Below, piece by piece: positions 1 to 34,164 of a stretch of DNA of 64,000 nucleotides. The DNA is taken from the NCBI RefSeq assembly GCF_003790525.1, contig NZ_CP033632.1; one strand, 5' to 3'. This DNA comes from Escherichia coli. GTDB taxonomy: Bacteria; Pseudomonadota; Gammaproteobacteria; Enterobacterales; Enterobacteriaceae. Both the position numbers and the translations under genes were made by a program. Below the pieces are notes generated by a model, which searched no databases, had not been told where the DNA came from, and saw nothing but the letters and a program-made list of their open reading frames with translations. The number at the start of each line of letters is the position of its first letter. Position 1 is the stretch's first letter.

Positions 1-645
1 TGTAAATAATTGTTCAAAACTCATAAACACTCCTTTGTTAAAGGGCAGGAAGCGGTAAACGTCTCTCCCTTAGTTAAGCCATCAATCACTCGATTAGTTT
101 CTGAATGGCAATCAGCGCGTTTGCAATGGCGAGCACAGCCCTGAGAACGATGATTAACAGATTCATCATCCGTTTCTCTAGGTTGATACTGGAGGAAGTC
201 ACCGTAGCTTGCTCATACATCGCCTGTCACAACGGCTCTCTCACATTGTTGGATGTAGAGTACCTTCCCTCTACCAGAGCACTGAACACAGCACCACCCG
301 TTTGTTCAGCCAGGACTTTAATTCGTTCATCCCCAGATAGCGCAGGGGTTAGAAGCAAGGGAGACACACTGTACAGCGCCAACACAAAGATTATACAGAT
401 GCATGCATAAAATTCATTTAAAGAAATTACCATTGACAGACAATCTGAAGTCAAACTAGACAACAGGTGTCTAGTGCCATAATACTATGAGTGTTGGGTG
501 TAGAGTATCTTCCTCCAGTCAGAGCCACCAACTCAAGGCTGGAAAACACAAAAAAGCCAAATTACCAGTCGGTTTTTTTTGTGCTTGTCGTTCAGCTGTA
601 CTTCCGTTTTTTCCCCCCTTCATTGAAGAAGTAGTAGGCAGAGCA

Positions 646-871
646 GGTAATGACTCCAACTTATTGATAGTGTTTTATGTTCAGATAATGCCCGATGACT
701 TTGTCATGCAGCTCCACCGATTTTGAGAACGACAGCGACTTCCGTCCCAGCCGTGCCAGGTGCTGCCTCAGATTCAGGTTATGCCGCTCAATTCGCTGCG
801 TATATCGCTTGCTGATTACGTGCAGCTTTCCCTTCAGGCGGGATTCATACAGCGGCCAGCCATCCGTCATC
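646..871 (-). mobile_element. insB: IS1 fragment (3' end of insB plus terminal IR), truncated by IS26
   Basis: ORF 661..876 translates to the InsB C-terminus (...[46 protein letters not shown]); IS1 terminal sequence ggtaatgactccaac starts at 646. Confidence 0.85.
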
Positions 872-1691
872 GGCACTGTTGCAAATAGTCGGTGGTGATA
901 AACTTATCATCCCCTTTTGCTGATGGAGCTGCACATGAACCCATTCAAAGGCCGGCATTTTCAGCGTGACATCATTCTGTGGGCCGTACGCTGGTACTGC
1001 AAATACGGCATCAGTTACCGTGAGCTGCAGGAGATGCTGGCTGAACGCGGAGTGAATGTCGATCACTCCACGATTTACCGCTGGGTTCAGCGTTATGCGC
1101 CTGAAATGGAAAAACGGCTGCGCTGGTACTGGCGTAACCCTTCCGATCTTTGCCCGTGGCACATGGATGAAACCTACGTGAAGGTCAATGGCCGCTGGGC
1201 GTATCTGTACCGGGCCGTCGACAGCCGGGGCCGCACTGTCGATTTTTATCTCTCCTCCCGTCGTAACAGCAAAGCTGCATACCGGTTTCTGGGTAAAATC
1301 CTCAACAACGTGAAGAAGTGGCAGATCCCACGATTCATCAACACGGATAAAGCGCCCGCCTATGGTCGCGCGCTTGCTCTGCTCAAACGCGAAGGCCGGT
1401 GCCCGTCTGACGTTGAACACCGACAGATTAAGTACCGGAACAACGTGATTGAATGCGATCATGGCAAACTGAAACGGATAATCAACGCCACGCTGGGATT
1501 TAAATCCATGAAGACGGCTTACGCCACCATCAAAGGTATTGAGGTGATGCGTGCACTACGCAAAGGCCAGGCCTCAGCATTTTATTATGGTGATCCCCTG
1601 GGCGAAATGCGCCTGGTAAGCAGAGTTTTTGAAATGTAAGGCCTTTGAATAAGACAAAAGGCTGCCTCATCGCTAACTTTGCAACAGTGCC
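872..1691 (+). mobile_element. IS26: IS26 copy 1 (820 bp, 14-bp terminal IRs ggcactgttgcaaa)
   Basis: Terminal IRs at both ends; contains the Tnp26 ORF. Confidence 0.97.
917..1639 (+). CDS. tnp26: IS26 transposase Tnp26, Asn184 allele (canonical start MNPFKG at 935)
   Basis: ORF translation matches Tnp26; motif RIINATLGF. Confidence 0.95.
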   Translation: MLMELHMNPFKGRHFQRDIILWAVRWYCKYGISYRELQEMLAERGVNVDHSTIYRWVQRYAPEMEKRLRWYWRNPSDLCPWHMDETYVKVNGRWAYLYRAVDSRGRTVDFYLSSRRNSKAAYRFLGKILNNVKKWQIPRFINTDKAPAYGRALALLKREGRCPSDVEHRQIKYRNNVIECDHGKLKRIINATLGFKSMKTAYATIKGIEVMRALRKGQASAFYYGDPLGEMRLVSRVFEM

Positions 1692-1706
1692 AGAAGGTGA
1701 ACACTG

Positions 1707-2291
1707 ATGCCCCGCCCCAAGCTCAAGTCCGATGACGAGGTACTCGAGGCCGCCACCGTAGTGCTGAAGCGTTGCGGTCCCATAGAGTTCACGCTCAGCG
1801 GAGTAGCAAAGGAGGTGGGGCTCTCCCGCGCAGCGTTAATCCAGCGCTTCACCAACCGCGATACGCTGCTGGTGAGGATGATGGAGCGCGGCGTCGAGCA
1901 GGTGCGGCATTACCTGAATGCGATACCGATAGGCGCAGGGCCGCAAGGGCTCTGGGAATTTTTGCAGGTGCTCGTTCGGAGCATGAACACTCGCAACGAC
2001 TTCTCGGTGAACTATCTCATCTCCTGGTACGAGCTCCAGGTGCCGGAGCTACGCACGCTTGCGATCCAGCGGAACCGCGCGGTGGTGGAGGGGATCCGCA
2101 AGCGACTGCCCCCAGGTGCTCCTGCGGCAGCTGAGTTGCTCCTGCACTCGGTCATCGCTGGCGCGACGATGCAGTGGGCCGTCGATCCGGATGGTGAGCT
2201 AGCTGATCATGTGCTGGCTCAGATCGCTGCCATCCTGTGTTTAATGTTTCCCGAACACGACGATTTCCAACTCCTCCAGGCACATGCGTAA
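1707..2291 (+). CDS. mphR(A): TetR-family repressor MphR(A), 194 aa
   Basis: Translation MPRPKLKSDDEVLEAATVVLKRCGPIEF... matches MphR(A) from memory; IS6100 lies downstream as in the usual mph(A) module. Confidence 0.85.
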   Translation: MPRPKLKSDDEVLEAATVVLKRCGPIEFTLSGVAKEVGLSRAALIQRFTNRDTLLVRMMERGVEQVRHYLNAIPIGAGPQGLWEFLQVLVRSMNTRNDFSVNYLISWYELQVPELRTLAIQRNRAVVEGIRKRLPPGAPAAAELLLHSVIAGATMQWAVDPDGELADHVLAQIAAILCLMFPEHDDFQLLQAHA

Positions 2292-2729
2292 ACGGAGGTG
2301 TGCAGAGTCCCTGCGGCAGGCGACGAACACGACCGTCGTCGATTAGTACCGGTACGGTCGGTGGTATCGAAGTCTTGATCACCACTCAGGTCTACGGCTT
2401 ACAAATGGTGACCATCCCGATACTTGCGTCAGAGCACCGGGCCGATTCTTTGACAGTGAATCACTCCCGTAAGGTTGTGCCGGTGTGGGTGTCCCGGGTC
2501 GAGACGATACTCCGCCAATGCGCCCAGCAAACAACCTGGCCATCGCAGGTGGTGGGGAGCGGTGTGGCGGATGAGTTGGACAAGTTGGTGTAGCAGCACG
2601 AGCACGGCGAGATAACATCGCAGGAGTTCGACATGCTCAAGAGACAGCTGATTGCGAATCGCGATGCAGATTCATAACCCGATTGCGGGTTGGCTTCACT
2701 CCACCATCACCGAGCAGACTAGCACGGCG

Positions 2730-3609
2730 GGCTCTGTTGCAAAGATTGGCGGCAGTCAGAGGTAGGCTGTCGCTCTGCGCCGATCAGGCGGCTGCTGCGA
2801 AATGGTGGTTGAGCATGCCCATGGCCTCCGTCAGCGCCGAGGGCCCAATGCCAAAAGCTCTCTCCACAAGGCGCACCTCGCCCCTGATGCCGGGCTGCAG
2901 GCACCAGGGGCGAGCCTGTCCTTTGCGCAGGGCTCGCATGACTTCGAATCCCTTGATCGTGGCATAGGCCGTGGGGATCGATTTGAAACCGCGCACCGGC
3001 TTGATCAGTATCTTGAGCTTTCCGTGATCGGCCTCGATCACGTTATTGAGATACTTCACCTGCCGGTGGGCCGTCTCCCGGTCCAGCTTTCCTTCGCGCT
3101 TCAATTCGGTGATCGCTGCACCATAGCTCGGCGCTTTGTCGGTATTGAGCGTGGCAGGCTTTTCCCAGTGCTTCAGGCCTCGCAGGGCCTTGCCCAGGAA
3201 CCGCTTCGCTGCCTTGGCGCTGCGGGTCGGCGACAGGTAGAAATCGATCGTGTCGCCCCGCTTGTCGACTGCCCGGTACAGGTAGGTCCACTTGCCCCGC
3301 ACCTTGACGTAGGTTTCATCCAGGCGCCAGCTCGGATCAAAGCCACGCCGCCAGAACCAGCGCAGCCGCTTCTCCATCTCCGGGGCGTAGCACTGGACCC
3401 AGCGATAGATCGTCGTATGGTCGACCGAAATGCCGCGTTCCGCCAGCATTTCCTCAAGGTCGCGATAGCTGATCGGATAGCGACAATACCAGCGCACCGC
3501 CCACAGGATCACATCACCCTGGAAATGGCGCCACTTGAAATCCGTCATCGTTCCGTCCGTCCAATCTCCGCCAAGCATGCTCAAGCTTCACGATTTTTGC
3601 AACAGAGCC
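2730..3609 (-). mobile_element. IS6100: IS6100 (880 bp)
   Basis: 14-bp IRs ggctctgttgcaaa at 2730 and, reverse-complemented, at 3596..3609; encodes an IS6-family transposase. Confidence 0.92.
2784..3548 (-). CDS. IS6100 transposase (254 aa from MTDFKWRHFQGD)
   Basis: ORF 2784..3584 translation; IS6-family DDE protein about 60 percent identical to Tnp26. Confidence 0.9.
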   Translation of the reverse strand: MTDFKWRHFQGDVILWAVRWYCRYPISYRDLEEMLAERGISVDHTTIYRWVQCYAPEMEKRLRWFWRRGFDPSWRLDETYVKVRGKWTYLYRAVDKRGDTIDFYLSPTRSAKAAKRFLGKALRGLKHWEKPATLNTDKAPSYGAAITELKREGKLDRETAHRQVKYLNNVIEADHGKLKILIKPVRGFKSIPTAYATIKGFEVMRALRKGQARPWCLQPGIRGEVRLVERAFGIGPSALTEAMGMLNHHFAAAA

Positions 3610-3636
3610 CACACGAGTATTGAGCATAGTCGAGAT
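3610..3636. other. 27-bp fragment of class 1 integron/Tn402 IRt-proximal sequence, between IS6100 and IS26
   Basis: cacacgagtattgagcatagtcgagat is the exact reverse complement of 60699..60725, just inside IRt. Confidence 0.8.
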
Positions 3637-4456
3637 GGCACTGTTGCAAAGTTAGCGATGAGGCAGCCTTTTGTCTTATTCAAAGGCCTTACATTTCAAA
3701 AACTCTGCTTACCAGGCGCATTTCGCCCAGGGGATCACCATAATAAAATGCTGAGGCCTGGCCTTTGCGTAGTGCACGCATCACCTCAATACCTTTGATG
3801 GTGGCGTAAGCCGTCTTCATGGATTTAAATCCCAGCGTGGCGTTGATTATCCGTTTCAGTTTGCCATGATCGCATTCAATCACGTTGTTCCGGTACTTAA
3901 TCTGTCGGTGTTCAACGTCAGACGGGCACCGGCCTTCGCGTTTGAGCAGAGCAAGCGCGCGACCATAGGCGGGCGCTTTATCCGTGTTGATGAATCGTGG
4001 GATCTGCCACTTCTTCACGTTGTTGAGGATTTTACCCAGAAACCGGTATGCAGCTTTGCTGTTACGACGGGAGGAGAGATAAAAATCGACAGTGCGGCCC
4101 CGGCTGTCGACGGCCCGGTACAGATACGCCCAGCGGCCATTGACCTTCACGTAGGTTTCATCCATGTGCCACGGGCAAAGATCGGAAGGGTTACGCCAGT
4201 ACCAGCGCAGCCGTTTTTCCATTTCAGGCGCATAACGCTGAACCCAGCGGTAAATCGTGGAGTGATCGACATTCACTCCGCGTTCAGCCAGCATCTCCTG
4301 CAGCTCACGGTAACTGATGCCGTATTTGCAGTACCAGCGTACGGCCCACAGAATGATGTCACGCTGAAAATGCCGGCCTTTGAATGGGTTCATGTGCAGC
4401 TCCATCAGCAAAAGGGGATGATAAGTTTATCACCACCGACTATTTGCAACAGTGCC
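3637..4456 (-). mobile_element. IS26: IS26 copy 2
   Basis: 820 bp with terminal IRs. Confidence 0.97.
3689..4411 (-). CDS. tnp26: IS26 transposase Tnp26, Asn184 allele
   Basis: ORF translation identical to copy 1. Confidence 0.95.
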   Translation of the reverse strand: MLMELHMNPFKGRHFQRDIILWAVRWYCKYGISYRELQEMLAERGVNVDHSTIYRWVQRYAPEMEKRLRWYWRNPSDLCPWHMDETYVKVNGRWAYLYRAVDSRGRTVDFYLSSRRNSKAAYRFLGKILNNVKKWQIPRFINTDKAPAYGRALALLKREGRCPSDVEHRQIKYRNNVIECDHGKLKRIINATLGFKSMKTAYATIKGIEVMRALRKGQASAFYYGDPLGEMRLVSRVFEM

Positions 4457-5499: not shown

Positions 5500-5751
5500 A
5501 TGAGCTATCAAATTCTGACAACCACAGCGGCCAGTATTACTGACCTGAAAAAAAATCCTATGGGAACCGTAGCTGAAGGTGAAGGGGACGCTGTTGCGAT
5601 CCTGAACCGAAACGAACCGGCGTTCTATTGCGTTCCACCAAAACTTTACGCCTACTATCGGGAACTCGCTGAAGATGCTGAGTTAAACGCTGTTGCTGAT
5701 GAGCGCATGAAAAACCCGGAAATTGTGAAGGTTAACCTGGATGACCTATGA
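5500..5751 (+). CDS. Type II antitoxin (StbD/RelB-like, Phd/YefM-type), 83 aa
   Basis: Small acidic protein overlapping a RelE/ParE-like toxin gene by 11 bp. Confidence 0.65.
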   Translation: MSYQILTTTAASITDLKKNPMGTVAEGEGDAVAILNRNEPAFYCVPPKLYAYYRELAEDAELNAVADERMKNPEIVKVNLDDL

Positions 5752-6022
5752 ACTGGCTTTTGACCGCAGAGCACTGAAGGAATGGCAGAAACTCGGCCAC
5801 ACCATCCGTGAACAATTCAAAAAGAAGCTGGCAGAACGGCTGGAAAATCCACGCGTACCCGCAGCCCGGTTACATGGTCATGCTGATCGCTATAAAATCA
5901 AACTTCGTGCATCTGGCTACAGACTTGTATATCAAGTCATTGATGAGAAAGTCGTTTTACTCGTTATTGCTGTTGGAAGAAGGGAAAGCAGCGAAGTTTA
6001 TCAGATTGCAGATATGCGCTGA
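5741..6022 (+). CDS. RelE/ParE-family toxin (StbE-like), 93 aa
   Basis: Translation ...RLHGHADRYKIKLRASGYRLVYQVIDEKVVLLVIAVGRRESSEVY is typical of RelE/ParE. Confidence 0.75.
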   Translation: MTYELAFDRRALKEWQKLGHTIREQFKKKLAERLENPRVPAARLHGHADRYKIKLRASGYRLVYQVIDEKVVLLVIAVGRRESSEVYQIADMR

Positions 6023-6208: not shown

Positions 6209-6350
6209 GGCACTGTTGCAAAGTTAGCGATGAGGCAGCCTTTTGTCTTATTCAAAGGCCTTACATTTCAAAAACTCTGCTTACCAGGCGCATTTCGCCT
6301 AGGGGATCACCATAATAAAATGCTGAGGCCTGGCCTTTGCGTAGTGCACG
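6209..6350 (-). mobile_element. IS26: IS26 stub (142 bp of the end distal to the tnp start)
   Basis: Matches 3637..3778 with one SNP (t at 6300); homology ends abruptly at 6350. Confidence 0.85.
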
Positions 6351-6518
6351 TATAGGAAATTGAAAAACCAGTCGATACCATTGTCCACGCCTTATGCCAC
6401 GTGAGCCTTTCTGCTTTTCCCACCACTCCGGTGGTTTCCCTCTCTGTATGGTCGATTTTTATACCGTAACAGGCTGTTTTTTATACTTTCACCGATTCCC
6501 GGGCACACTTAGCCTGTG

Positions 6519-7718
6519 TCAGGCCGGCATATACCTCAGTAGACTGATATCCCGCGCGTTTTTCTTCAGCCCTGATACATTCAGCCCCGCAATGGCCCGG
6601 CGGTATACCATCCGGCAGCCACACAGCACGCATTCGAACGGGTCACGACTCAGGAACTGTTTCACCATTTGTGCATAGCACACTTTCGCCACTGGTTCCG
6701 GTTTATCCATCCCCAGTGCACGGTACACCTGCGGCAGCTTCTCTCCACACACACGGTTGGCAAGGAACCCGAAGTACCTCACCATCTTAAAAAACTTCTC
6801 CGGGATGTGCTGTTTCAGCCTCGCGACCAGCTCACGCTGTGTCAGCGTTTCCGTCGCCGTTTCTCCCGTTTTGTGGTCCAGGTAACGGAAGCTCAGGCTT
6901 GCCCCTCCGTTGTAATGAGCCAGTCGGGAAGCCGCTATTGGTGGCTTCTTCAGATAACGACCCAGGTAGCGTGCCGTATTCCGCCCTCCGGCTGTCTTCT
7001 TCGACATGTACACATGCCAGTATTTTCCGCCGGATTTCAGCACCAGGCTTCTCCACTGTGATTCCGTCGTGATATGTGACAACGACTCCGGCATTGCCAT
7101 CCCCTCTGACCACGCTTTCAGAAGCAGCTGCCGCATATTCCACATCCACCGTGAACGCATCGCGTCTTTCAGGAAGCTCAGCTTTTTCCACTGACCATGC
7201 TTATTCAGACCTCCACAGGTTACAGACACATGTACATGCGGATGCCAGTTGAGACGACGGCCATACGTGTGGATGGCGCAGAAGATACCGGGTTCCAGCC
7301 CCCGTTTTCGGGCGGCATACAGCAGATTCTCCACCGCCAGACGGCACACGTCATTCAGCAGCCAGCGGTTGCTTTCGAACACCGGCCACAGCGTGTCCGG
7401 CAGGGTGAAGACCAGATGTACCCAGTCGCAGTCAGGAAGACGATTCAGCTGTGTTGCTGTCCACAGGTCTGTGGCCTTCTTTCCGCAGGACGGGCAGGCA
7501 CGGCTGCCGCATGAGTTGGTCAGGTACTTTACGTGCTGACAGTCCGGGTTATCACACCCGAACTCTTTTACACCCAGTATCCGTGTGCCGCAGGCCAGCA
7601 TTTTGGTGACGGCTTCAACCTCGATATCGCGCAGACCGCCCGCATCCAGGAAGGACGTCCAGCACTGGTTGGCTGTGAACAGACGTTTCAGAGGGCGGGG
7701 AGTAAAACCGGACAACAT
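6519..7718 (-). CDS. IS91-family (HUH rolling-circle) transposase, 399 aa
   Basis: N-terminal Cys cluster CDNPDCQHVKYLTNSCGSRACPSCGKK and IS91-like body, recalled not searched. Confidence 0.65.
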   Translation of the reverse strand: MLSGFTPRPLKRLFTANQCWTSFLDAGGLRDIEVEAVTKMLACGTRILGVKEFGCDNPDCQHVKYLTNSCGSRACPSCGKKATDLWTATQLNRLPDCDWVHLVFTLPDTLWPVFESNRWLLNDVCRLAVENLLYAARKRGLEPGIFCAIHTYGRRLNWHPHVHVSVTCGGLNKHGQWKKLSFLKDAMRSRWMWNMRQLLLKAWSEGMAMPESLSHITTESQWRSLVLKSGGKYWHVYMSKKTAGGRNTARYLGRYLKKPPIAASRLAHYNGGASLSFRYLDHKTGETATETLTQRELVARLKQHIPEKFFKMVRYFGFLANRVCGEKLPQVYRALGMDKPEPVAKVCYAQMVKQFLSRDPFECVLCGCRMVYRRAIAGLNVSGLKKNARDISLLRYMPA

Positions 7719-9482: not shown

Positions 9483-10289
<807 letters not shown>

Positions 10290-10309
10290 GCGGGACTCTG
10301 GGGTTCGAA

Positions 10310-10532
10310 ATGACCGACCAAGCGACGCCCAACCTGCCATCACGAGATTTCGATTCCACCGCCGCCTTCTATGAAAGGTTGGGCTTCGGAATCGTTTTCC
10401 GGGACGCCGGCTGGATGATCCTCCAGCGCGGGGATCTCATGCTGGAGTTCTTCGCCCACCCCGGGCTCGATCCCCTCGCGAGTTGGTTCAGCTGCTGCCT
10501 GAGGCTGGACGACCTCGCGGAGTTCTACCGGC
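10310..10532 (+). pseudogene. ble: Tn5 bleomycin-resistance gene ble, 3' end removed by IS26
   Basis: Translation MTDQATPNLPSRDFDSTAAFYERLGFGIVFRDAGWMILQRGDLMLEFFAHPGLDPLASWFSCCLRLDDLAEFYR matches Ble, then runs into the IS26 IR. Confidence 0.85.
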
Positions 10533-11352
10533 GGCACTGTTGCAAATAGTCGGTGGTGATAAACTTATCATCCCCTTTTGCTGATGGAGCTGCACATGAA
10601 CCCATTCAAAGGCCGGCATTTTCAGCGTGACATCATTCTGTGGGCCGTACGCTGGTACTGCAAATACGGCATCAGTTACCGTGAGCTGCAGGAGATGCTG
10701 GCTGAACGCGGAGTGAATGTCGATCACTCCACGATTTACCGCTGGGTTCAGCGTTATGCGCCTGAAATGGAAAAACGGCTGCGCTGGTACTGGCGTAACC
10801 CTTCCGATCTTTGCCCGTGGCACATGGATGAAACCTACGTGAAGGTCAATGGCCGCTGGGCGTATCTGTACCGGGCCGTCGACAGCCGGGGCCGCACTGT
10901 CGATTTTTATCTCTCCTCCCGTCGTAACAGCAAAGCTGCATACCGGTTTCTGGGTAAAATCCTCAACAACGTGAAGAAGTGGCAGATCCCGCGATTCATC
11001 AACACGGATAAAGCGCCCGCCTATGGTCGCGCGCTTGCTCTGCTCAAACGCGAAGGCCGGTGCCCGTCTGACGTTGAACACCGACAGATTAAGTACCGGA
11101 ACAACGTGATTGAATGCGATCATGGCAAACTGAAACGGATAATCGGCGCCACGCTGGGATTTAAATCCATGAAGACGGCTTACGCCACCATCAAAGGTAT
11201 TGAGGTGATGCGTGCACTACGCAAAGGCCAGGCCTCAGCATTTTATTATGGTGATCCCCTGGGCGAAATGCGCCTGGTAAGCAGAGTTTTTGAAATGTAA
11301 GGCCTTTGAATAAGACAAAAGGCTGCCTCATCGCTAACTTTGCAACAGTGCC
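10533..11352 (+). mobile_element. IS26: IS26 copy 3 (Gly184 allele)
   Basis: 820 bp with terminal IRs. Confidence 0.97.
10578..11300 (+). CDS. tnp26: IS26 transposase Tnp26, Gly184 allele (RIIGATLGF)
   Basis: ORF translation. Confidence 0.95.
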   Translation: MLMELHMNPFKGRHFQRDIILWAVRWYCKYGISYRELQEMLAERGVNVDHSTIYRWVQRYAPEMEKRLRWYWRNPSDLCPWHMDETYVKVNGRWAYLYRAVDSRGRTVDFYLSSRRNSKAAYRFLGKILNNVKKWQIPRFINTDKAPAYGRALALLKREGRCPSDVEHRQIKYRNNVIECDHGKLKRIIGATLGFKSMKTAYATIKGIEVMRALRKGQASAFYYGDPLGEMRLVSRVFEM

Positions 11353-11401
11353 CTCTGCGGTGCTAAAAAGAACAAGATTCACCGCAACCCAGGACACTGC
11401 C

Positions 11402-11881
11402 ATGTTAGATTACCGCTTCCCGACAGCTTTGCAGATGGTTCTCAGCGTAGCAATGGCGGAGCAGATGGGTGAACGTTCGACGAGTGCGATTCTGGCCTAC
11501 GGCCTGGAAGCGAACCCGAGCTTTATCCGTAAACTAATGGTTCCGCTAACTCGTGACGGCATTATCGTCTCCACGCTTGGTCGCAACGGCTCAATTCATC
11601 TTGGCCGTCCGGCGGACAAGATCACCCTGCGTGATATCTATCTTTCGGTTATCGAAGATAAAAAACTGTGGGCGTCGCGTCCTGACGTCCCGGCCCGCTG
11701 CGTGGTCAGCGCCAACGCCTGCTGGTACTTCAAATCGGTTGCCGATGAAGCAGAGCAGGCTTCGTTAAACGTCCTCGCTCGCCATACCGTGGCCAGCGCG
11801 CTGGAGGCGGTCAAAAACGCCGATACCAGCGGCTGCGACCCGGTGCCGGAAATGATCGCCCGCTTTAAAAAAGCGCATTAA
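11402..11881 (+). CDS. oqxR: Rrf2-family repressor OqxR
   Basis: Start taken at MLDYRFPTALQ...; placed next to oqxAB; the track ORF extends into the IS26 end. Confidence 0.7.
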   Translation: MLDYRFPTALQMVLSVAMAEQMGERSTSAILAYGLEANPSFIRKLMVPLTRDGIIVSTLGRNGSIHLGRPADKITLRDIYLSVIEDKKLWASRPDVPARCVVSANACWYFKSVADEAEQASLNVLARHTVASALEAVKNADTSGCDPVPEMIARFKKAH

Positions 11882-11897
11882 TCATTTTCTGGTGACG

Positions 11898-11935
11898 AAA
11901 AAAAACCGCCTTCAAATTGTGAAGGCGGTTTTTTT
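11898..11935. terminator. Bidirectional rho-independent terminator between oqxR and oqxB
   Basis: A-run, stem ccgccttca/tgaaggcgg, T-run. Confidence 0.75.
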
Positions 11936-11950
11936 GTTATCTGCTGCAGG

Positions 11951-14900
11951 CTAGGCGGGCAGATCCTCCTGGACCGGCTTCCTGCGGGTCACCAGTTTCC
12001 GTAGCGTCACGTAAAACACCGGCGTCAGGAACAGACCGAAGAGCGTCACGCCCAGCATCCCGGAGAACACCGTGATCCCGGTGACGCCGCGGACTTCCGC
12101 CCCCGCGCCGTGGCCGAGGATCAGCGGAATGGTCCCGGCGATAAAGGCGATGGAGGTCATCACGATCGGGCGCAGACGCAGGCGGCATGCCTCCAGCGCC
12201 GCTTCCATGATGCCTTTCCCCTGGATCTCCAGCTCGCGGGCAAACTCGACGATCAGAATGGCGTTTTTACAGGCCAGGCCCATCAGGACCACCAGACCCA
12301 CCTGCACGAAGACGTTGTTATCGCCCCCGGTCAGCCAGACGCCAAACAGCGCGGAGAGCATCGTCATCGGTACGATAAGGATCACCGCCAGCGGCAGGGT
12401 CCAGCTTTCATACAGCGCGGCCAGTACGAGGAATGCCAGCAGCACCGCCACCGGGAAGACGATCAGCGCCGTGTTGCCCTGGGTGGCCTGCTGGAAGCTG
12501 AGATCCGTCCACTCAATATTCATCCCATTCGGCAGGATCTGCTTCGACAGCTCTTCCAGATGCGTCATCGCCTGCGAAGAAGAGAGGACCCGCGGATCGG
12601 CATCGCCAATCAGGTCCGCCGCCGGATAACCGTTGTAGCGGATCACCGGATCCGGCCCGTAGGTGGTACTGATATTCACCATACTGCCGATCGGTACCAT
12701 TTCGCCCTGATTATTGCGGGTGCGCAGATTGGCGATATCTTCCACGCTCTCGCGGTATGGTCCGTCAGCCTGGGCCATCACGCGCCAGGTACGCCCGAAC
12801 TGGTTAAAGTCATTGACATAAGACGAGCCGAGATAGGTCTGCAGCGTACCGAACAGATCGGTTAGCGATACCCCCTGCGCTTTCGCCTTATCGCGATCGA
12901 CCTGCACGTCCAGCTGCGGCACGTTAGCCTGGTAAGTCGAGATCGGGAAGTGCATCCCCGGCGTCTGCATAATCGCCCCGGACATCGCATTCACCGCGCT
13001 TTGCAGCGCGCCATAGCCCAGCCCTCCGCGATCCTGGATGTACAGGGAGTAGCCGGAACCCTGACCCAGACCTAAAATCGGCGGCGGCAGGATGGAAAAG
13101 CCAAAGCCCTGCTGGATTTGCGCGATTTTGGCGTTGATCTCCGCGTTAATTTCCGCCGCCGTGTGTTTGCGCTGGTCGAACGGTTTCAGGCCAAAAAAGA
13201 CCGTCCCGGTATTCGGCGTGTTGGTGAACTGCAGCGCGTTAAGCCCCGGGAAAGCGACCGCATAGTCGACCCCTTCGGTATTCATCCCGATCTCGCTCAT
13301 TTTGCGGATCACCGCGTCGGTGCGCGCCAGCGACGACCCTTCCGGCATCTTCACGCCGCCAATGAGATACAGCTTATCCTGGGTGGGAATAAACCCGCCG
13401 GGGACGACTTTAAACATCACCCCAGCGGCGCAGAGCAGCAGCAGGTACACCGCAAACACTGCGCCACGGCGTCCAAGCGTTTTGCCTACCAGTCCCTGAT
13501 AGCCGTTCGAGCTGCGCAGGAAAAAGCGGTTAAACGGACGGAAAATCCAGCCAAACAGGCGATCGATCAGCCGGGTAGGGAGGTCTTTCTTCGCGCCGTG
13601 CGGCTTTAACAGCAGGGCCGCCAGCGCCGGGGAGAGCGTCAGCGAGTTGATGGCCGAGATCACCGTCGAGATGGCGATGGTCACCGCGAACTGTTTGTAG
13701 AACTGGCCGGTGACCCCGGAGAGAAACGCCATCGGCACGAACACCGCACACAGCACCAGCGCAATGGCGATAATCGGCCCGGAGACCTCACGCATCGCCT
13801 GATGCGCCGCGGCAAGCGGCGCAAGCCCCTCTTCGATATTACGCTCGACGTTCTCCACCACCACGATGGCGTCGTCCACCACGATACCGATAGCCAGTAC
13901 CAGCCCGAACAGGCTCAGGGTATTCAGCGAGAAGCCCAGCAGATAGAGAATGCTGAAGGTACCCACCACCGATACCGGCACAGCGATCAACGGGATAATC
14001 GACGCGCGCCAGGTCTGCAGGAACAGGATCACTACCAGCACCACCAGCACTACCGCCTCCAGCAGCGTCTGCACCACCGCGCGGATGGAGTCGCGGACGA
14101 AAACCGTCGGGTCGTACGGCGCCGCCCATTGCATATCTTCCGGGAAGCGGGTGGCCAGCTCGGCCATTTTGGCGCGTACCGCGTTCGACAGATCGATGGC
14201 GTTAGCGCCGGGTGACTGGAAGATACCGATCCCGACCGCATCCTTATTGTTGAGCTGGGAGCGCAGCGCATAGCTACCGGAACCCATCTCGATGCGCGCC
14301 ACGTCGCGCAGGCGGACCAGCGAGCCATCCTGCGCCGTTTTCAGAATGATATTGCCAAACTCTTCTTCGGTATGCAGACGGCCCTGGGCGTTAATGGAGA
14401 TCAGGAAATCGCTCTCCTGCGGCAGCGGCTCGGCGCCAAGCTGTCCGGCAGACACCTGGACGTTTTGCTCCTGCATCGCCGTCACCACATCCGAGGCCGT
14501 CAGACCGCGGGCAGCGACCTTATTGGGATCCAGCCAGACGCGCATCGCATATTCACCGGAGCCAAAAATCTGGATCTGGCCGACGCCGGGCAGGCGCGCC
14601 AGCTCATCCTTCACTTTCAGCGTGGCGTAGTTGCGCATATACAGCGAGTCGTACTTCCCGCCGGGGGAGAACAGATGCACCACCAGGGTCAGCGTCGGAG
14701 ACTGCTTCTGGGTGGTGATCCCCAGACGGCGTACATCCTCCGGCAGACGCGCTTCGGCCTGCGCGACGCGGTTCTGCACCTGAACCTGCGCCTGATCCGG
14801 GTCGGTACCCGGGCGGAAGGTGACGGTGGTGACCAGCACGCCGTCGGAGCCGGCGACCGATTTCATGTACATCATGTTTTCAACGCCGTTGATCGCTTCC

Positions 14901-15103
14901 TCCAGCGGCGTCGCCACGGTCTCGGCAATCACTTTCGGGTTGGCGCCGGGATACTCCGCGCGCACCTGGACGCTCGGCGGGACGACATCCGGATATTCGC
15001 TCACCGGCAGCAGTGGGATAGCGATTAACCCGGTGATAAAAATTAAAATCGACAGCACCGCGGCGAAAATCGGCCTGTCGATAAAAAAGCGGGAAAAGTC
15101 CAT
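11951..15103 (-). CDS. oqxB: RND efflux transporter OqxB, 1050 aa
   Basis: AcrB-like 1050-aa translation; paired with the adaptor gene. Confidence 0.9.
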   Translation of the reverse strand: MDFSRFFIDRPIFAAVLSILIFITGLIAIPLLPVSEYPDVVPPSVQVRAEYPGANPKVIAETVATPLEEAINGVENMMYMKSVAGSDGVLVTTVTFRPGTDPDQAQVQVQNRVAQAEARLPEDVRRLGITTQKQSPTLTLVVHLFSPGGKYDSLYMRNYATLKVKDELARLPGVGQIQIFGSGEYAMRVWLDPNKVAARGLTASDVVTAMQEQNVQVSAGQLGAEPLPQESDFLISINAQGRLHTEEEFGNIILKTAQDGSLVRLRDVARIEMGSGSYALRSQLNNKDAVGIGIFQSPGANAIDLSNAVRAKMAELATRFPEDMQWAAPYDPTVFVRDSIRAVVQTLLEAVVLVVLVVILFLQTWRASIIPLIAVPVSVVGTFSILYLLGFSLNTLSLFGLVLAIGIVVDDAIVVVENVERNIEEGLAPLAAAHQAMREVSGPIIAIALVLCAVFVPMAFLSGVTGQFYKQFAVTIAISTVISAINSLTLSPALAALLLKPHGAKKDLPTRLIDRLFGWIFRPFNRFFLRSSNGYQGLVGKTLGRRGAVFAVYLLLLCAAGVMFKVVPGGFIPTQDKLYLIGGVKMPEGSSLARTDAVIRKMSEIGMNTEGVDYAVAFPGLNALQFTNTPNTGTVFFGLKPFDQRKHTAAEINAEINAKIAQIQQGFGFSILPPPILGLGQGSGYSLYIQDRGGLGYGALQSAVNAMSGAIMQTPGMHFPISTYQANVPQLDVQVDRDKAKAQGVSLTDLFGTLQTYLGSSYVNDFNQFGRTWRVMAQADGPYRESVEDIANLRTRNNQGEMVPIGSMVNISTTYGPDPVIRYNGYPAADLIGDADPRVLSSSQAMTHLEELSKQILPNGMNIEWTDLSFQQATQGNTALIVFPVAVLLAFLVLAALYESWTLPLAVILIVPMTMLSALFGVWLTGGDNNVFVQVGLVVLMGLACKNAILIVEFARELEIQGKGIMEAALEACRLRLRPIVMTSIAFIAGTIPLILGHGAGAEVRGVTGITVFSGMLGVTLFGLFLTPVFYVTLRKLVTRRKPVQEDLPA

Positions 15104-15126
15104 GTCTTGGATTCTCTGATTAGGGA

Positions 15127-16302
15127 TCAGTTAAGGGTGGCGCTGGAGGTCATGGCAACGGTTTTGGCGTTAACCGGCATACCCGGCATAAACACTTTTT
15201 GTAAGCCGTCGACGATGACGCTATCCCCAGGATTCAACCCCTTCTGAACGATGCGTAAACCGTCTGCCAGCCGCCCTGGGGTAATGTCGCGGCGCTGTGC
15301 TTTACCATCTTTATCAACGATATAGACGTATTTACGATCCTGATCGGTCAGTACCGCTTTGTCGTCGATCAGCGTGGCTTTGAACTCTGCGCTGCCCGGC
15401 AGACGCACGCGGGCAAACAGCCCCGGCGTGAACAGACGCTGCGAGTTATCCAGCAGCGCACGCATGCGGATGGTGCCGGTACTCGGCGTTAACTGATTAT
15501 CGAGAAAATCCACTTTGCCCTGGTGGGGGTAACCCTCCTCGCCCACCAGGCCAATCTCCACCGGGAGCGCCTGATTATCGCTGGACGCGCCTTGCCCGCG
15601 GCGGGCGAGGTTTTGATAGTGGAGGTAGGTTGACTCGTCGACGTCAAAGTAGACGTACACCGTCTTTTGCGAGACCAGGGTGGTGAGCACGCTGGCGGTG
15701 TCGCCCGCGGTGACCAGGTTACCGCTGGTGATCAGCGCCCGGCTGGCGCGGCCGTCAATAGGGGCGGTCACTTTGGTGAAGTCGAGGTTAAGCTGCGCGG
15801 CATCCACCGCCGCCTGCGCGGCGCGAATGTCGGCCTGCGCCTGAACCGCGGCTGACCGGCGCTGCTCCCACTCTTCACGGGAGACGAGGTTGGTATGGAC
15901 TAATTTATCGGTGCGGTTCGCCTCGCTTTGCGCGAGGCTGGCCTGCGTTTTGGCTCTTGCCAACGCCGCCTGCGCCTGCTCCAGCGCGGCGCGATAGGTT
16001 CTGTCATCTATCGTGAACAGCACCTGGCCCTTTTTCACCTCCTGGCCGTCAGTGTAATTCACTTTATCAATGTATCCCGAGACGCGAGGGCGAAGCTGAA
16101 CGCTCTCCACCGCTTCAATGCGACCGTTAAAACTATCCCACTGACTGATCGACTTCACCAGCACCTTAGCGGCGCTGACCGTCGGGGCGGGAGGCGCAGC
16201 ATTCTGTGCGACGCTGTCGTCGCAGCCGACGAGCAGAAAGGAGAGCATCATCGCGCCGAGCGCGGTCAGGTGAATGTTTCCCCAGGTTTTTTGCAGGCTC
16301 AT
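15127..16302 (-). CDS. oqxA: RND periplasmic adaptor OqxA, 391 aa
   Basis: Membrane-fusion-protein translation upstream of oqxB. Confidence 0.9.
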   Translation of the reverse strand: MSLQKTWGNIHLTALGAMMLSFLLVGCDDSVAQNAAPPAPTVSAAKVLVKSISQWDSFNGRIEAVESVQLRPRVSGYIDKVNYTDGQEVKKGQVLFTIDDRTYRAALEQAQAALARAKTQASLAQSEANRTDKLVHTNLVSREEWEQRRSAAVQAQADIRAAQAAVDAAQLNLDFTKVTAPIDGRASRALITSGNLVTAGDTASVLTTLVSQKTVYVYFDVDESTYLHYQNLARRGQGASSDNQALPVEIGLVGEEGYPHQGKVDFLDNQLTPSTGTIRMRALLDNSQRLFTPGLFARVRLPGSAEFKATLIDDKAVLTDQDRKYVYIVDKDGKAQRRDITPGRLADGLRIVQKGLNPGDSVIVDGLQKVFMPGMPVNAKTVAMTSSATLN

Positions 16303-16558
16303 TATTTTTATTCCGGTAAATGTAGCCGCCGGGCAAGACGCAGCGTGAGAAGCCGCGCCACTTCCTTTGTCCGGGCTGGCTTAAGGCCATTTGTGTCGAT
16401 CATCGCCACAAAACTGTAACAATTTCGAATACACTATCGCGGCGATTGTAGGAAGGCGCTTAACTAAGTGCAAGAATAATTGTTGCACTTTATGTGCGGT
16501 CCAGGGGGGGGATAAAAAACCGCGATCCCGGCGTGGATTTAAATGTAACAATAAAACT

Positions 16559-17378
16559 GGCACTGTTGCAAATAGTCGGTGGTGATAAACTTATCATCCC
16601 CTTTTGCTGATGGAGCTGCACATGAACCCATTCAAAGGCCGGCATTTTCAGCGTGACATCATTCTGTGGGCCGTACGCTGGTACTGCAAATACGGCATCA
16701 GTTACCGTGAGCTGCAGGAGATGCTGGCTGAACGCGGAGTGAATGTCGATCACTCCACGATTTACCGCTGGGTTCAGCGTTATGCGCCTGAAATGGAAAA
16801 ACGGCTGCGCTGGTACTGGCGTAACCCTTCCGATCTTTGCCCGTGGCACATGGATGAAACCTACGTGAAGGTCAATGGCCGCTGGGCGTATCTGTACCGG
16901 GCCGTCGACAGCCGGGGCCGCACTGTCGATTTTTATCTCTCCTCCCGTCGTAACAGCAAAGCTGCATACCGGTTTCTGGGTAAAATCCTCAACAACGTGA
17001 AGAAGTGGCAGATCCCACGATTCATCAACACGGATAAAGCGCCCGCCTATGGTCGCGCGCTTGCTCTGCTCAAACGCGAAGGCCGGTGCCCGTCTGACGT
17101 TGAACACCGACAGATTAAGTACCGGAACAACGTGATTGAATGCGATCATGGCAAACTGAAACGGATAATCAACGCCACGCTGGGATTTAAATCCATGAAG
17201 ACGGCTTACGCCACCATCAAAGGTATTGAGGTGATGCGTGCACTACGCAAAGGCCAGGCCTCAGCATTTTATTATGGTGATCCCCTGGGCGAAATGCGCC
17301 TGGTAAGCAGAGTTTTTGAAATGTAAGGCCTTTGAATAAGACAAAAGGCTGCCTCATCGCTAACTTTGCAACAGTGCC
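16559..17378 (+). mobile_element. IS26: IS26 copy 4
   Basis: 820 bp with terminal IRs. Confidence 0.97.
16604..17326 (+). CDS. tnp26: IS26 transposase Tnp26, Asn184 allele
   Basis: ORF translation. Confidence 0.95.
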   Translation: MLMELHMNPFKGRHFQRDIILWAVRWYCKYGISYRELQEMLAERGVNVDHSTIYRWVQRYAPEMEKRLRWYWRNPSDLCPWHMDETYVKVNGRWAYLYRAVDSRGRTVDFYLSSRRNSKAAYRFLGKILNNVKKWQIPRFINTDKAPAYGRALALLKREGRCPSDVEHRQIKYRNNVIECDHGKLKRIINATLGFKSMKTAYATIKGIEVMRALRKGQASAFYYGDPLGEMRLVSRVFEM

Positions 17379-19084
17379 ATATGACGATGGCTGCTAAAGA
17401 GCTGCTGGAGTCACAAGGGCTGAAGGTCACGGCGCTGGCCCCCTATGGGACACAGAAAAAAGCGCTTGAAGATGATGGATTACCGGCCCGCACCGTTGCC
17501 GCTTTCCTCAAAGCGAAGGATAAAAAGCTGGATGAAAAATCAGTCGTATTCATTGATGAAGCCGGGGTTATACCCGCCCGACAGATGAAACAGCTGATGG
17601 AGGTAATCGAGAAGCATAACGCTCGCGCGGTATTCCTGGGGGATACGTCACAGACGAAAGCGGTAGAAGCCGGTAAGCCTTTTGAGCAGCTGATTAAAGC
17701 AGGTATGCAGACCAGCTACATGAAAGACATTCAGCGACAGAAGAATGAAGTTTTGCTTGAGGCGGTTAAGTATGCCGCTGAAGGTAATGCCGCGCGCGCC
17801 CTGAAAAATATCACCGGCGTGAACGAACTGAAGGAAGAAGCGCCCCGACTCGCTCAACTTGCCGATCGCTACCTGTCTCTGTCCTCAGAACAACAGGATG
17901 CCACCCTGATAATCTCTGGTACGAACGCCTCACGCAAAACCCTCAATGACTACATCCGGGGCAATCTGGGGCTTGCCGGAACCGGCGAAACGTTCACGCT
18001 ACTTGACCGCGTGGATTCGACACAGGCGGAACGCCGCGACAGCCGTTATTTCAGTAAAGGGCAAATCATTATCCCCGAACAGGATTACAAAAATGGTATG
18101 AAGCGGGGCGAGTCTTACCAGGTTCTTGATACCGGGCCGGGCAACAAATTGACGGTTGAAAGCATCAGCGGTGAGCAGATCGCTTTCAGCCCGCGTACAC
18201 ACACCAAGCTGTCTGTATACCAGGCAGTCAGCGCCGAACTGGCGCCGGGCGATAAGGTTATGGTAACGCGTAACGATAAAACGCTGGACGTTGCCAACGG
18301 CGACCGCTTCACGGTGAAAACCGTGGAGGGTGAAAAACTGACGCTTGAGGACAAAAAAGGGCGCACGGTTGAGCTGGATAAAAAACAGGCTTCTTATCTT
18401 TCCTATGCTTATGCAACCACCGTCCACAAATCCCAGGGGCTTACCTGTGATCGCGTGTTGTTCAACATAGATACCAAATCGCTTACCACTTCTAAGGACG
18501 TTTTTTATGTTGGTATTTCGCGTGCGCGTCATGAGGTGGAAATTTTTACCGACGATAAAAAATCTTTGGCATCGAGCGTGAGCCGCGACAGCCCGAAAAC
18601 CACGGCCGCAGAAATTGACCGTTTCTTTGGACTTGAGGCCAGGTTTAAGGATATTGGCCGCGATACCAGTTTAGAAACCCGATCAGCTGAAAAAGGTCTG
18701 CCAGAAGCCACGGGGGAAAGCATGGCGTTTAACCAGAAACCCGATGAACATAACATGACAACCGGCACTGATTATCAGCCGGTGAGCAACGCAGAGGACG
18801 CCTTTCATCTTAAGCAGAACCCTATGGATGATTCCGTTGGCCTGCGGCGTCATGAAGCACAGCAAAATGATGCAGAGCTGGCCCATGATTATGCTGCTGC
18901 CGACGATCAGCAGTGGAGCGCGCAGGAGTATGCCGATTACGAGCATTATGCCGAAGCATCCGACTACGACTTTGACAGCAGCATTTACGACGATTACGCC
19001 ATGCCGCAGACGTCTCAGGCGGAACAGAGCCATACCGGAAAAGAACACACCCATGAGCATGAAGAAGGGGGCCATGAAATCTGA
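17379..19084 (+). pseudogene. traI: Conjugative relaxase/helicase (TraI-like) C-terminal fragment; 5' part removed by IS26
   Basis: Reading frame starts at the IS26 boundary; helicase-like body with an acidic C-terminal tail. Confidence 0.7.
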
Positions 19085-19710
19085 TGGAGCAGATCGACAA
19101 GCGCAAGCAGGATAAACTGAAGTTCGACCGGGTAATTAATCTGGCGCACAGACTGCCGCAACCGGCGATCCATGACTTACTACGCGCGCTGATACTGCCA
19201 ATTCAGGCCGATTACTTGCTGGCCGTTGGCACGGAGGGCCAGGACGCGCGCCCGGACATGAACGAGCGCGAGTTCTTCTTCACAAAAATCATCTGGGCGA
19301 TGGATTACACGCACATGAAATCACTCAGGCTTGCAGCTGAAGATTTTCCCCTGGCGCTTGCGACGGCCAAGATCCTGCCGTGGCCGTGGGGTGAATCAAG
19401 CTACCGGAGTGCTTTAGCCGATATAGGCAGCGCTAAGGGCAATCCGTGGGTACAGGATATTAACCACCGCGTTACTTTGTGGTTGCCCTGGCGGATAGGC
19501 TTTGTACGAGGAGGGAACCATTCTATTGCCAGCGGCGTTCTGGCCGGTGAGGGTGAGGTAATACCCGATACGGTTTATGATATGCGGTATTTGCTCGATA
19601 TTGTCAGCACTGACGGGTATTACTGGTACATGAGCGGGAAGATCTGCGAGAGAGTCAGTGACTACCGTACAGCCGCCTTTTTTGAAATAGGCCGCCTGCT
19701 TACACTGTGA
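19084..19710 (+). CDS. Hypothetical protein, 208 aa, coupled to the relaxase gene
   Basis: ATGA stop/start overlap with the upstream gene; no recognised domain. Confidence 0.5.
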   Translation: MEQIDKRKQDKLKFDRVINLAHRLPQPAIHDLLRALILPIQADYLLAVGTEGQDARPDMNEREFFFTKIIWAMDYTHMKSLRLAAEDFPLALATAKILPWPWGESSYRSALADIGSAKGNPWVQDINHRVTLWLPWRIGFVRGGNHSIASGVLAGEGEVIPDTVYDMRYLLDIVSTDGYYWYMSGKICERVSDYRTAAFFEIGRLLTL

Positions 19711-19753
19711 TTCCTTCAAAATATCTCAACGAAATTTCCCGACACCTGTTTAA

Positions 19754-19774
19754 GGGGGAACCGCAGAATTCGGA
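19754..19774. repeat. 21-bp remnant of a Tn21/Tn501-family terminal inverted repeat
   Basis: gggggaaccgcagaattcgga matches the first 21 bp of the 38-bp IR; compare the complete IR at 49753..49790. Confidence 0.6.
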
Positions 19775-20172
19775 TTTCATATAACCTATTTTTGTTGTTC
19801 AAGTTTGATTCCTTGGACTCTTCAGAATACAGACAGCAAATAAAGACCTTTCGTTTGAAGTATGTATTTCTTGCAGCAAAAATAATCAAAACCGCAAGAT
19901 ATGTAATCATGAAGTTGTCGGAAAACTATCCGTACAAGGGAGTGTATGAAAAATGTCTGGTATAATAAGAATATCATCAATAAAATTGAGTGTTGCTCTG
20001 TGGATAACTTGCAGAGTTTATTAAGTATCATTGCAGCAAAGATGAAATCAATGATTTATCAAAAATGATTGAAAGGTGGTTGTAAATAATGTTACAATGT
20101 GTGAGAAGCAGTCTAAATTCTTCGTGAAATAGTGATTTTTGAAGCTAATAAAAAACACACGTGGAATTTAGG
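19775..20172 (+). mobile_element. ISEcp1: ISEcp1 3' remnant with IRR and outward promoter; left boundary approximate
   Basis: Sequence ...tgttgctctgtggataacttgcagag...ttgaaa...tacaat...acacacgtggaatttagg recalled as the ISEcp1 right end; a 42-bp spacer follows. Confidence 0.8.
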
Positions 20173-20196
20173 GAATACTGATGTAACACGGATTGA

Positions 20197-21090
<894 letters not shown>

Positions 21091-21092
21091 CT

Positions 21093-25350: not shown

Positions 25351-25354
25351 CGGG

Positions 25355-26661: not shown

Positions 26662-26680
26662 CGCGGCCTCAGTCTGTGCT

Positions 26681-30467: not shown

Positions 30468-30468
30468 T

Positions 30469-32376: not shown

Positions 32377-32399
32377 ATTTCAATTAACACGGAGTAATT

Positions 32400-32693: not shown

Positions 32694-32699
32694 ATTAAT

Positions 32700-34089: not shown

Positions 34090-34164
34090 ACTACAGGTGC
34101 CCACCAGCACATACAGAAAATGATTGTTTCCACATCAAGGAGATTTTAATGTTTCACTGAAACA

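What the first reader, a model, noticed from the sequence alone, without database searches (positions are those of the whole stretch)
1692..2729. Orphan mphR(A): macrolide phosphotransferase and mrx missing
In the usual module, IS26 is followed by mph(A), mrx, mphR(A) and then IS6100. Here IS26 ends 15 bp before the mphR(A) start codon, so mph(A) and mrx are absent, most likely through an IS26-mediated adjacent deletion. The repressor is left without its target operon, and a resistance call based on mphR alone would be wrong.
Basis: partly seen in the sequence, partly recalled or inferred. Interest (0 to 1): 0.3.

Follow-up and report, generated by a model that had tools for sequence, protein, structure and literature searches.

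The report
Orphan mphR(A) left by IS26 deletion
A common mobile element (IS26) has cut the macrolide-resistance genes mph(A) and mrx out of their usual cassette, leaving only the repressor gene; this is an ordinary scar in a multidrug-resistance plasmid, and the region should not confer macrolide resistance.

Summary
IS26 (872-1691, +) ends 15 bp before the ATG of an intact mphR(A) (1707-2291). The protein is 100% identical to the crystallised MphR(A). The usual spacer, IS6100 (2730-3609), 27 bp and an inverted IS26 (3637-4456) follow. Window 1692-3634 is base-for-base identical to the canonical IS26-mph(A)-mrx(A)-mphR(A)-IS6100 module.

mph(A), mrx(A) and the PmphA operator are absent from all 64 kb. 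Plasmid pHB42-F3 has the same IncX1 backbone, IS1 remnant and IS26 left flank, but with the module intact. The window differs from it by one clean 2,194-bp loss that starts at the IS26 end. IS26 keeps its orientation and has no 8-bp target duplication.

This fits an IS26 adjacent deletion by intramolecular replicative transposition in cis. IS26 insertion followed by IS26-IS26 recombination would give the same product. The exact junction was found in none of PLSDB, 5,426 complete E. coli genomes, GTDB genome contigs or JGI metagenome contigs. Other IS26-truncated orphan mphR(A) loci do exist, so the phenomenon is recurrent and known.

mphR(A) keeps its Shine-Dalgarno sequence but has lost its promoter. 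Any expression would have to come from read-through of tnp26; this is inferred, not shown.

Interest is low.

The parts
646..871 (-). IS1 remnant (3' part of insB) truncated by IS26. Together with 1-645 it forms the IncX1-backbone flank shared with other plasmids.
   Evidence: 95.6% match to IS1 in L001. ORF 661-876 (-) is in the ORF list; I read it by eye as the C-terminal part of IS1 InsB, with no family search run. The 401-bp junction 560-960 is present at 100% in about 70 PLSDB plasmids, typed IncX1 or IncX1 hybrids.
872..1691 (+). IS26, 820 bp, G184N (IS26-v1) variant. tnp26 (935-1639) is transcribed towards mphR(A). No 8-bp target duplication: flanks are CCGTCATC / AGAAGGTG.
   Evidence: IRs and flanks. 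IS6-family transposase NF033587, E=3.9e-83. Three SNPs and residue 184 = N. Variant definition from PMC9412624.
1692..1706 (+). The last 15 bp of mrx(A) upstream of the mphR(A) ATG. It contains the mphR(A) Shine-Dalgarno-like AAGGTG (1694-1699). The mrx stop TGA is 1705-1707.
   Evidence: Identical to L001 3002-3016. The canonical mrx ends ...THTEGEH*.
1707..2291 (+). Intact mphR(A), the TetR-family macrolide-binding repressor (194 aa).
   Evidence: Aligns identically over all 194 residues with PDB 3FRQ/3G56. Translation identical to the annotated MphR(A) of CP088557. The same RefSeq protein, WP_001137892.1, is annotated in p1108-NDM, pHB42-F3 and 88COLEC.
2292..2729 (.). Canonical non-coding/hypothetical spacer between mphR(A) and IS6100.
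   Evidence: No differences from L001 across 1692-3634. The 118-aa ORF at 2237-2593 has no NCBIfam family.
2730..3609 (-). IS6100, 880 bp, complete.
   Evidence: IRs GGCTCTGTTGCAAA read. IS6-family transposase, E=2.3e-85. Identical to L001, and 100% identical to p1108-NDM.
3610..3636 (.). 27-bp spacer between IS6100 and the inverted IS26. It is the same as in p1108-NDM; it is 25 bp in pE16EC0348-2 and 15 bp in pHB42-F3.
3637..4456 (-). Second IS26 (also G184N), inverted relative to the first. It bounds the remnant on the right.

Best explanation
The segment 1692-2729 is what remains of the widespread IS26-mph(A)-mrx(A)-mphR(A)-IS6100 macrolide-resistance module after an IS26-mediated adjacent deletion.

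The IS26 copy that normally sits 69 bp upstream of mph(A) transposed intramolecularly, in cis, into a target in the last codons of mrx(A). This removed 2,194 bp: the PmphA promoter/operator, all of mph(A), and all but 16 nt of mrx(A). The removed DNA would have left as a circle carrying one IS26 copy. The resident IS26 stayed in the same orientation against the same outer flank, and now abuts the ribosome-binding site of mphR(A).

The repressor gene is intact, but it has lost both its own promoter and its only known operator. It can be transcribed only by read-through from tnp26 and has nothing to regulate in this 64-kb region. The locus therefore should not confer macrolide resistance.

Shown: the anatomy, the size and ends of the deletion, the absence of a TSD, and the existence of an undeleted counterpart. 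Inferred: the one-step cis mechanism, read-through expression, and the phenotype.
For: - Anatomy and exact coordinates.
- Window 1692-3634 has no differences from the canonical module.
- p1108-NDM matches window 1691-4456 at 100% over 2,766 bp, then continues into intact mrx and mph(A).
- pHB42-F3 carries the same IncX1 backbone, IS1 remnant and IS26(+) flank, followed by intact mph(A)-mrx-mphR(A)-IS6100-IS26(-). The window equals it minus L008 21133-23326, which is 2,194 bp starting at the IS26 end.
- None of the six full IS26 copies has a TSD or a reverse-complement partner octamer.
- No mph(A), mrx or operator anywhere in the window.
- Independent orphan mphR(A) loci with other IS26 breakpoints exist. 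IS26 lies 90 bp upstream of mphR(A) in the 88COLEC chromosome; strains 21AH004/006/007 give a match of the same span. In a KN93 plasmid IS26 lies roughly 290 bp upstream. About 38 of 1,425 module-positive complete E. coli genomes lack full coverage of the mrx-3'/mphR(A) segment.
- tnp26 is transcribed from the left end across the IS (PMC7986276). No terminator or unusually stable hairpin lies between its stop codon and the mphR(A) ATG.
Against: - The product is identical to that of a two-step route (IS26 insertion, then recombination with the upstream IS26), so the one-step mechanism is not proven.
- pHB42-F3 is not a literal ancestor. Its left IS26 is the standard variant, not G184N, and its IS6100-IS26 spacer is 12 bp shorter.
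- The IS26 next to the IS1 remnant is a shared recombination point with varied cargo in other plasmids, so the junction could have formed elsewhere and been imported.
- There are no expression or MIC data, and the rest of the genome was not seen.
Confidence: 0.85

Rival explanations
1. Two-step origin. A second IS26 first inserted into the 3' end of mrx(A) in direct orientation, creating an 8-bp duplication. RecA-dependent or Tnp26-mediated recombination between it and the IS26 upstream of mph(A) then excised IS26-mph(A)-mrx as a translocatable unit.
For: It gives exactly the observed product: one IS26, no TSD, same orientation. Excision of an IS26-bounded segment by recombination between direct copies is documented (PMC4676283, listed; PMC7986276). 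The window holds six full IS26 copies, so substrates are abundant.
Against: No intermediate with IS26 at this position was found in PLSDB, 5,426 complete E. coli genomes, GTDB genome contigs or JGI metagenome contigs. It needs two events where one suffices.
Confidence: 0.25
2. The IS26/delta-mrx/mphR(A) junction formed in another replicon. It arrived here by IS26-targeted conservative cointegration or by homologous recombination through the IS26 next to the IS1 remnant, so the deletion did not happen in situ.
For: The IS1-remnant|IS26 junction is shared by about 70 plasmids with different cargo to its right: intI1-dfrA12-aadA2 in p1108-NDM and pNDM33-3, backbone genes in pD90-3. This shows frequent exchange through this IS26. 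In p1108-NDM the module lies elsewhere, next to oqxAB.
Against: pHB42-F3 shows the intact module already sitting at this very flank, in the same orientation, with the same inverted right-hand IS26. That makes an in-situ deletion the shortest path. The junction itself was found nowhere else.
Confidence: 0.1
3. Assembly artefact: mis-joining across IS26 repeats removed mph(A)-mrx from the assembly.
For: There are six full IS26 copies and one 145-bp fragment in 28 kb, a classic source of mis-assembly.
Against: Repeat collapse can swap what lies on either side of an IS26, but it cannot create a new IS26/mrx-3' junction. The right-hand breakpoint lies in unique sequence, where the canonical module has no IS26. 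The window is one contiguous 64-kb sequence spanning all the repeats.
Confidence: 0.03

Closest known systems
Canonical IS26-mph(A)-mrx(A)-mphR(A)-IS6100(-IS26) macrolide-resistance module, e.g. pE16EC0348-2 (CP088557), p1108-NDM (MG825381), pHB42-F3 (CP104331); described in PMC8407110
   Same: mphR(A), the downstream spacer and IS6100 are base-identical. The 27-bp IS6100-IS26 spacer and the inverted IS26 are identical to p1108-NDM. The left IS26 has the same orientation, and the same IncX1/IS1-remnant flank as pHB42-F3.
   Different: It lacks 2,194 bp: the PmphA promoter/operator, mph(A), and 1,223 of the 1,239 bp of mrx(A). It is therefore not a functional resistance module.
Other IS26-truncated orphan mphR(A) loci: E. 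coli 88COLEC chromosome (CP070906), strains 21AH004/006/007, and a KN93 plasmid
   Same: In 88COLEC, IS26 sits directly upstream of an intact mphR(A) with mph(A) gone, followed by IS6100 and an inverted IS26. The other strains match the same junction query in two pieces.
   Different: The breakpoints differ: 90 bp of mrx retained in 88COLEC and roughly 290 bp in KN93, against 15 bp here. In 88COLEC the location is chromosomal and IS6100 is also truncated. These are independent events.
IS26 intramolecular replicative transposition in cis ('adjacent deletion'), He et al. 2015 (PMC4471558); IS6-family review (PMC7986276)
   Same: [quoted passage not shown]
   Different: The reciprocal circular product (IS26 + mph(A) + truncated mrx) was not observed, and no transposition assay was done.

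Membership tests
MphR(A) (TetR-family macrolide-binding repressor) | Sequence identity to the experimentally characterised MphR(A) protein | tested here: met
   Aligns identically over residues 1-194 with PDB 3FRQ/3G56 'Repressor protein MphR(A)', E=1.9e-127. Translation identical to the annotated MphR(A) of CP088557.
MphR(A) (TetR-family macrolide-binding repressor) | Cognate operator/PmphA promoter and regulated mph(A)-mrx operon present in cis | tested here: not met
   No match to L001 808-3000 anywhere in the window. No match to the 35-bp stretch just upstream of mph(A), which I take from memory to contain the operator, at up to 3 mismatches. The gene is a member; the regulatory circuit is not present.
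MphR(A) (TetR-family macrolide-binding repressor) | Protein is expressed and binds macrolide/DNA | not testable with these tools
   Only inference is available: the SD AAGGTG is retained 7 nt upstream of the ATG, tnp26 is co-oriented, and no terminator lies between them.
IS26 (IS6 family) | 820-bp element with 14-bp terminal inverted repeats and a single DDE transposase (Tnp26, 234 aa) | tested here: met
   872-1691 with IRs GGCACTGTTGCAAA. NF033587 IS6-family transposase, 278 bits against a cutoff of 125. It differs from three other copies in the window by 3 nt, giving G184N.
IS26 (IS6 family) | 8-bp direct target duplication flanking a simple insertion | tested here: not met
   Flanks are CCGTCATC versus AGAAGGTG. 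This is expected for a copy that has undergone intramolecular transposition or recombination (PMC4471558).
Functional mph(A) macrolide-resistance module | Presence of mph(A) (macrolide 2'-phosphotransferase), with or without mrx(A) | tested here: not met
   Absent from the 64-kb window. The locus is a deletion derivative and must not be filed as a resistance determinant.
IS26 adjacent deletion (intramolecular replicative transposition in cis) | An undeleted counterpart exists with the same IS, same orientation and same outer flank; the missing DNA starts exactly at the IS end | tested here: met
   pHB42-F3: window 1-1691 = L008 19442-21132 and window 1691-4456 = L008 23326-26079. The 2,194 bp between them is missing.
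IS26 adjacent deletion (intramolecular replicative transposition in cis) | Reciprocal circular product, or a demonstration that the event was one-step and Tnp26-dependent | not testable with these tools
   Needs reads, PCR for the circle, or a recA-negative transposition assay.

The most novel reading that the evidence does not exclude
The deletion may be the donor scar of a translocatable unit (IS26 + PmphA-mph(A) + truncated mrx) that re-inserted next to another IS26 elsewhere in the same cell. The operon would then be split. mph(A) would sit on another replicon, either derepressed or controlled in trans by an MphR(A) now expressed constitutively from the promoter of a G184N IS26 variant. 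That would rewire the inducibility of macrolide resistance rather than simply losing it.
Probability: 0.07. Interest if true: 0.35.

Novelty: already known. Interest (0 to 1): 0.1.

Why it matters
There are three practical points.

1. For genotype-to-phenotype prediction, this plasmid region should be scored macrolide-susceptible despite carrying a gene of the mph(A) operon.
2. The unique IS26/mrx junction is a convenient epidemiological marker for this plasmid lineage. It was found in none of PLSDB, 5,426 complete E. coli genomes, GTDB genome contigs or JGI metagenome contigs.
3. It is one more documented case of IS26 trimming resistance islands, here with both the 'before' and 'after' states available.

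It opens no new biological question.

Tried and rejected
- Exact junction elsewhere. I searched a 120-bp query against PLSDB and E. coli complete genomes, and a 44-mer against GTDB genome contigs and JGI metagenome contigs. There was no hit, so recurrence or spread of this allele could not be shown.
- TSD partners. I looked for octamers among all IS26 flanks, direct or reverse-complement, that would reveal an inversion or insertion history. None were found.
- Single inversion from p1108-NDM. I tested whether the window derives from a p1108-NDM-like arrangement by one IS26 inversion. The flanks do not fit, because window 17379 onwards does not match the DNA left of L006 8001. Rejected.
- IS26 hybrid promoter for mphR(A). 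The outward -35 TTGCAA (1679-1684) has no acceptable -10 at 16-18 bp (ACACTG / CACTGA / ACTGAT), and transcription would start inside the ORF. The consensus scan found no promoter in 800-2800. Rejected in favour of read-through.
- Terminator between tnp26 and mphR(A). None was predicted, and the fold is no more stable than shuffled sequence (z = 0.82).
- Noguchi et al. 2000 (J Bacteriol 182:5052) on mphR(A) regulation. The paper is not held. The statement that mph(A)-mrx-mphR(A) is one operon transcribed from PmphA therefore rests on my own knowledge, plus the brief description in PMC5039519.
- NCBIfam has no specific MphR(A) model; there were only weak MtrR/BetI hits. Identity was established through PDB and RefSeq instead.

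Full report
**Observation**

- A complete IS26 lies at 872-1691. It has the 14-bp inverted repeats GGCACTGTTGCAAA / TTTGCAACAGTGCC, and tnp26 lies on the + strand at 935-1639.
- 15 bp follow (1692-1706, AGAAGGTGAACACTG).
- A 585-bp ORF follows at 1707-2291.

The ORF product aligns identically over all 194 residues with the crystallised repressor MphR(A), PDB 3FRQ/3G56. Its translation is identical to the annotated MphR(A) of plasmid CP088557.

Downstream come a 438-bp spacer (2292-2729), a complete IS6100 (2730-3609, - strand), 27 bp, and a second IS26 in inverted orientation (3637-4456). Both transposases score far above the IS6-family cutoff.

**What is missing**

I took a canonical module from plasmid pE16EC0348-2 (L001). 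It is annotated IS26, mph(A), mrx(A), mphR(A), IS6100, IS26. BLAST of it against the whole window matches only from L001 3001 onwards. Nothing in the 64 kb matches L001 808-3000, which holds the promoter/operator, mph(A) and mrx(A). The 35-bp region just upstream of mph(A), which I take from memory to contain the operator, has no match even with 3 mismatches.

An alignment shows no differences between window 1692-3634 and L001 3002-4944. The 15 retained bases, plus the A of the ATG, are the last 16 nt of mrx(A) (...GAA GGT GAA CAC TGA). The stop codon shares its A with the mphR(A) start codon. Base 1691 fits both IS26 and mrx, so the breakpoint is ambiguous by 1 bp.

**Surroundings**
- Window 1-871 is an IncX1-type backbone (the dqlB region in relatives) ending in an IS1 remnant (646-871) cut by IS26. 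This exact 401-bp junction occurs in about 70 PLSDB plasmids, with varied cargo to the right of IS26.
- To the right lies a mosaic resistance region containing five of the window's six full IS26 copies (the sixth is the one at 872-1691). It carries aph(3')-IIa, oqxAB, a blaCTX-M gene and fosA3.
- From about 29.6 to 45.3 kb the window is 99.2% identical to phage P1.
- A tet(A)/mer transposon region follows.
- No other macrolide-resistance gene turned up in the ORFs I examined. That was not an exhaustive screen.

**How it arose**

Two relatives supply the 'before' state.
- p1108-NDM matches window 1691-4456 at 100% over 2,766 bp: the inverted IS26, the 27-bp spacer, IS6100, the spacer and mphR(A). 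It then continues into intact mrx(A), mph(A) and IS26.
- I built a synthetic query joining the window's left flank to the mph(A) promoter region, with IS26 left out. It found pHB42-F3. That plasmid is annotated: IncX1 backbone, IS26(+), mph(A), mrx(A), mphR(A), IS6100(-), IS26(-).

Window 1-1691 aligns to L008 19442-21132, and window 1691-4456 aligns to L008 23326-26079. The window is that arrangement minus L008 21133-23326, which is 2,194 bp beginning at the first base after IS26.

IS26 keeps its orientation and its outer flank. Its flanking octamers differ (CCGTCATC / AGAAGGTG), and no other IS26 in the window carries a matching or reverse-complement octamer.

These features are what the literature gives for IS26 intramolecular replicative transposition in cis. 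[quoted passage not shown] One IS is left without a TSD, and the event is recognised when a partial gene remains (PMC4471558; PMC7986276).

The same product would arise from IS26 insertion followed by recombination between direct IS26 copies, and the sequence cannot tell these apart. pHB42-F3 is a structural counterpart, not a literal ancestor. Its left IS26 is the standard variant, while the window's copy is the G184N variant. Its IS6100-IS26 spacer is also 12 bp shorter.

**How common**

The exact junction was found in none of PLSDB, 5,426 complete E. coli genomes, GTDB genome contigs or JGI metagenome contigs.

The phenomenon is nonetheless recurrent.
- In the 88COLEC chromosome IS26 lies 90 bp upstream of an otherwise orphan mphR(A).
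- Strains 21AH004/006/007 give a junction match of the same span.
- A KN93 plasmid has IS26 roughly 290 bp upstream.
- Of 1,425 complete E. coli genomes matching the mrx-3'/mphR(A) segment, 1,387 hold at least 80% of it, so about 38 are truncated there.

**Function**

In the native system MphR represses the mphA promoter and is released by macrolides (PMC5039519). That mph(A)-mrx-mphR(A) is a single operon transcribed from that promoter is from my own knowledge (Noguchi et al. 2000; not retrievable).

Here both the promoter and the operator are gone. The Shine-Dalgarno-like AAGGTG (1694-1699) survives 7 nt upstream of the ATG. tnp26 is co-oriented and is transcribed from the IS left end across the element (PMC7986276). 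No terminator or unusually stable hairpin lies between its stop codon and the ATG.

A hybrid promoter using the IS26 outward -35 is implausible, because there is no usable -10 and transcription would start inside the ORF.

So mphR(A) is probably expressed weakly by read-through, if at all, and has no target in this region. This is inference. Without mph(A) the locus should not confer macrolide resistance.

The AMRFinderPlus and RGI predictions attached to the three annotated intact modules list mph(A)/mphA and Mrx, never mphR(A).

**Verdict**

This is an ordinary, well-understood IS26 deletion scar in a mosaic resistance region. All components are identical to known sequences, and only the precise breakpoint is new to the databases searched. 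Interest is low (0.1).

The most novel reading not excluded is that the excised IS26-mph(A) unit relocated elsewhere in the same genome, splitting the operon from its repressor. That needs the rest of the genome.

Noticed in passing
window 872-1691, 3637-4456, 16559-17378 versus 10533-11352, 23792-24611, 27109-27928: Two IS26 variants coexist in the window. Three copies, including both that flank the mphR(A) remnant, carry 3 SNPs that give Tnp26 G184N (IS26-v1). The other three are standard IS26. None of the six has an 8-bp target duplication.
   Followed up: partly
window about 29,600-45,300 (and on to about 49,700): This stretch is 99.2% identical to phage P1 (pacA/pacB terminase, cre and other genes). 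The IncX1-derived backbone fragments and the IS26-rich resistance region are therefore joined to a P1-like phage-plasmid, which suggests a hybrid or cointegrate replicon.
   Followed up: partly
window 3610-3636: The spacer between IS6100 and the adjoining IS26 is 27 bp here and in p1108-NDM, 25 bp in pE16EC0348-2 (where IS26 is in the opposite orientation), and 15 bp in pHB42-F3. This points to separate small IS26-adjacent deletions or insertions at this end of the module.
   Followed up: partly
window 6209-6353: An isolated 145-bp fragment of an IS26 end (98.6% identity) sits next to an IS91-family transposase gene (6519-7718) and a RelE/ParE-type toxin-antitoxin pair (5500-6022).
   Followed up: no
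window 9495-27108: The resistance cargo between IS26 copies comprises aph(3')-IIa (9495-10289), oqxAB (11951-16302), a relaxase fragment whose ORF starts at the IS26 end (17366-19084), a blaCTX-M gene (20215-21090) followed by an IS5-family transposase and a truncated TonB-dependent receptor, and fosA3 (about 24934-25350, identified by eye from the translation). No second macrolide-resistance gene was seen among the ORFs examined.
   Followed up: partly
window about 49,750-64,000: A tet(A)- and mer-carrying transposon region (Tn1721/Tn21-like genes, intI1 nearby) lies beside the P1-like segment. The best single plasmid match is E. coli NZ_AP027686 (86% of 44-64 kb at 99.8%).
   Followed up: no
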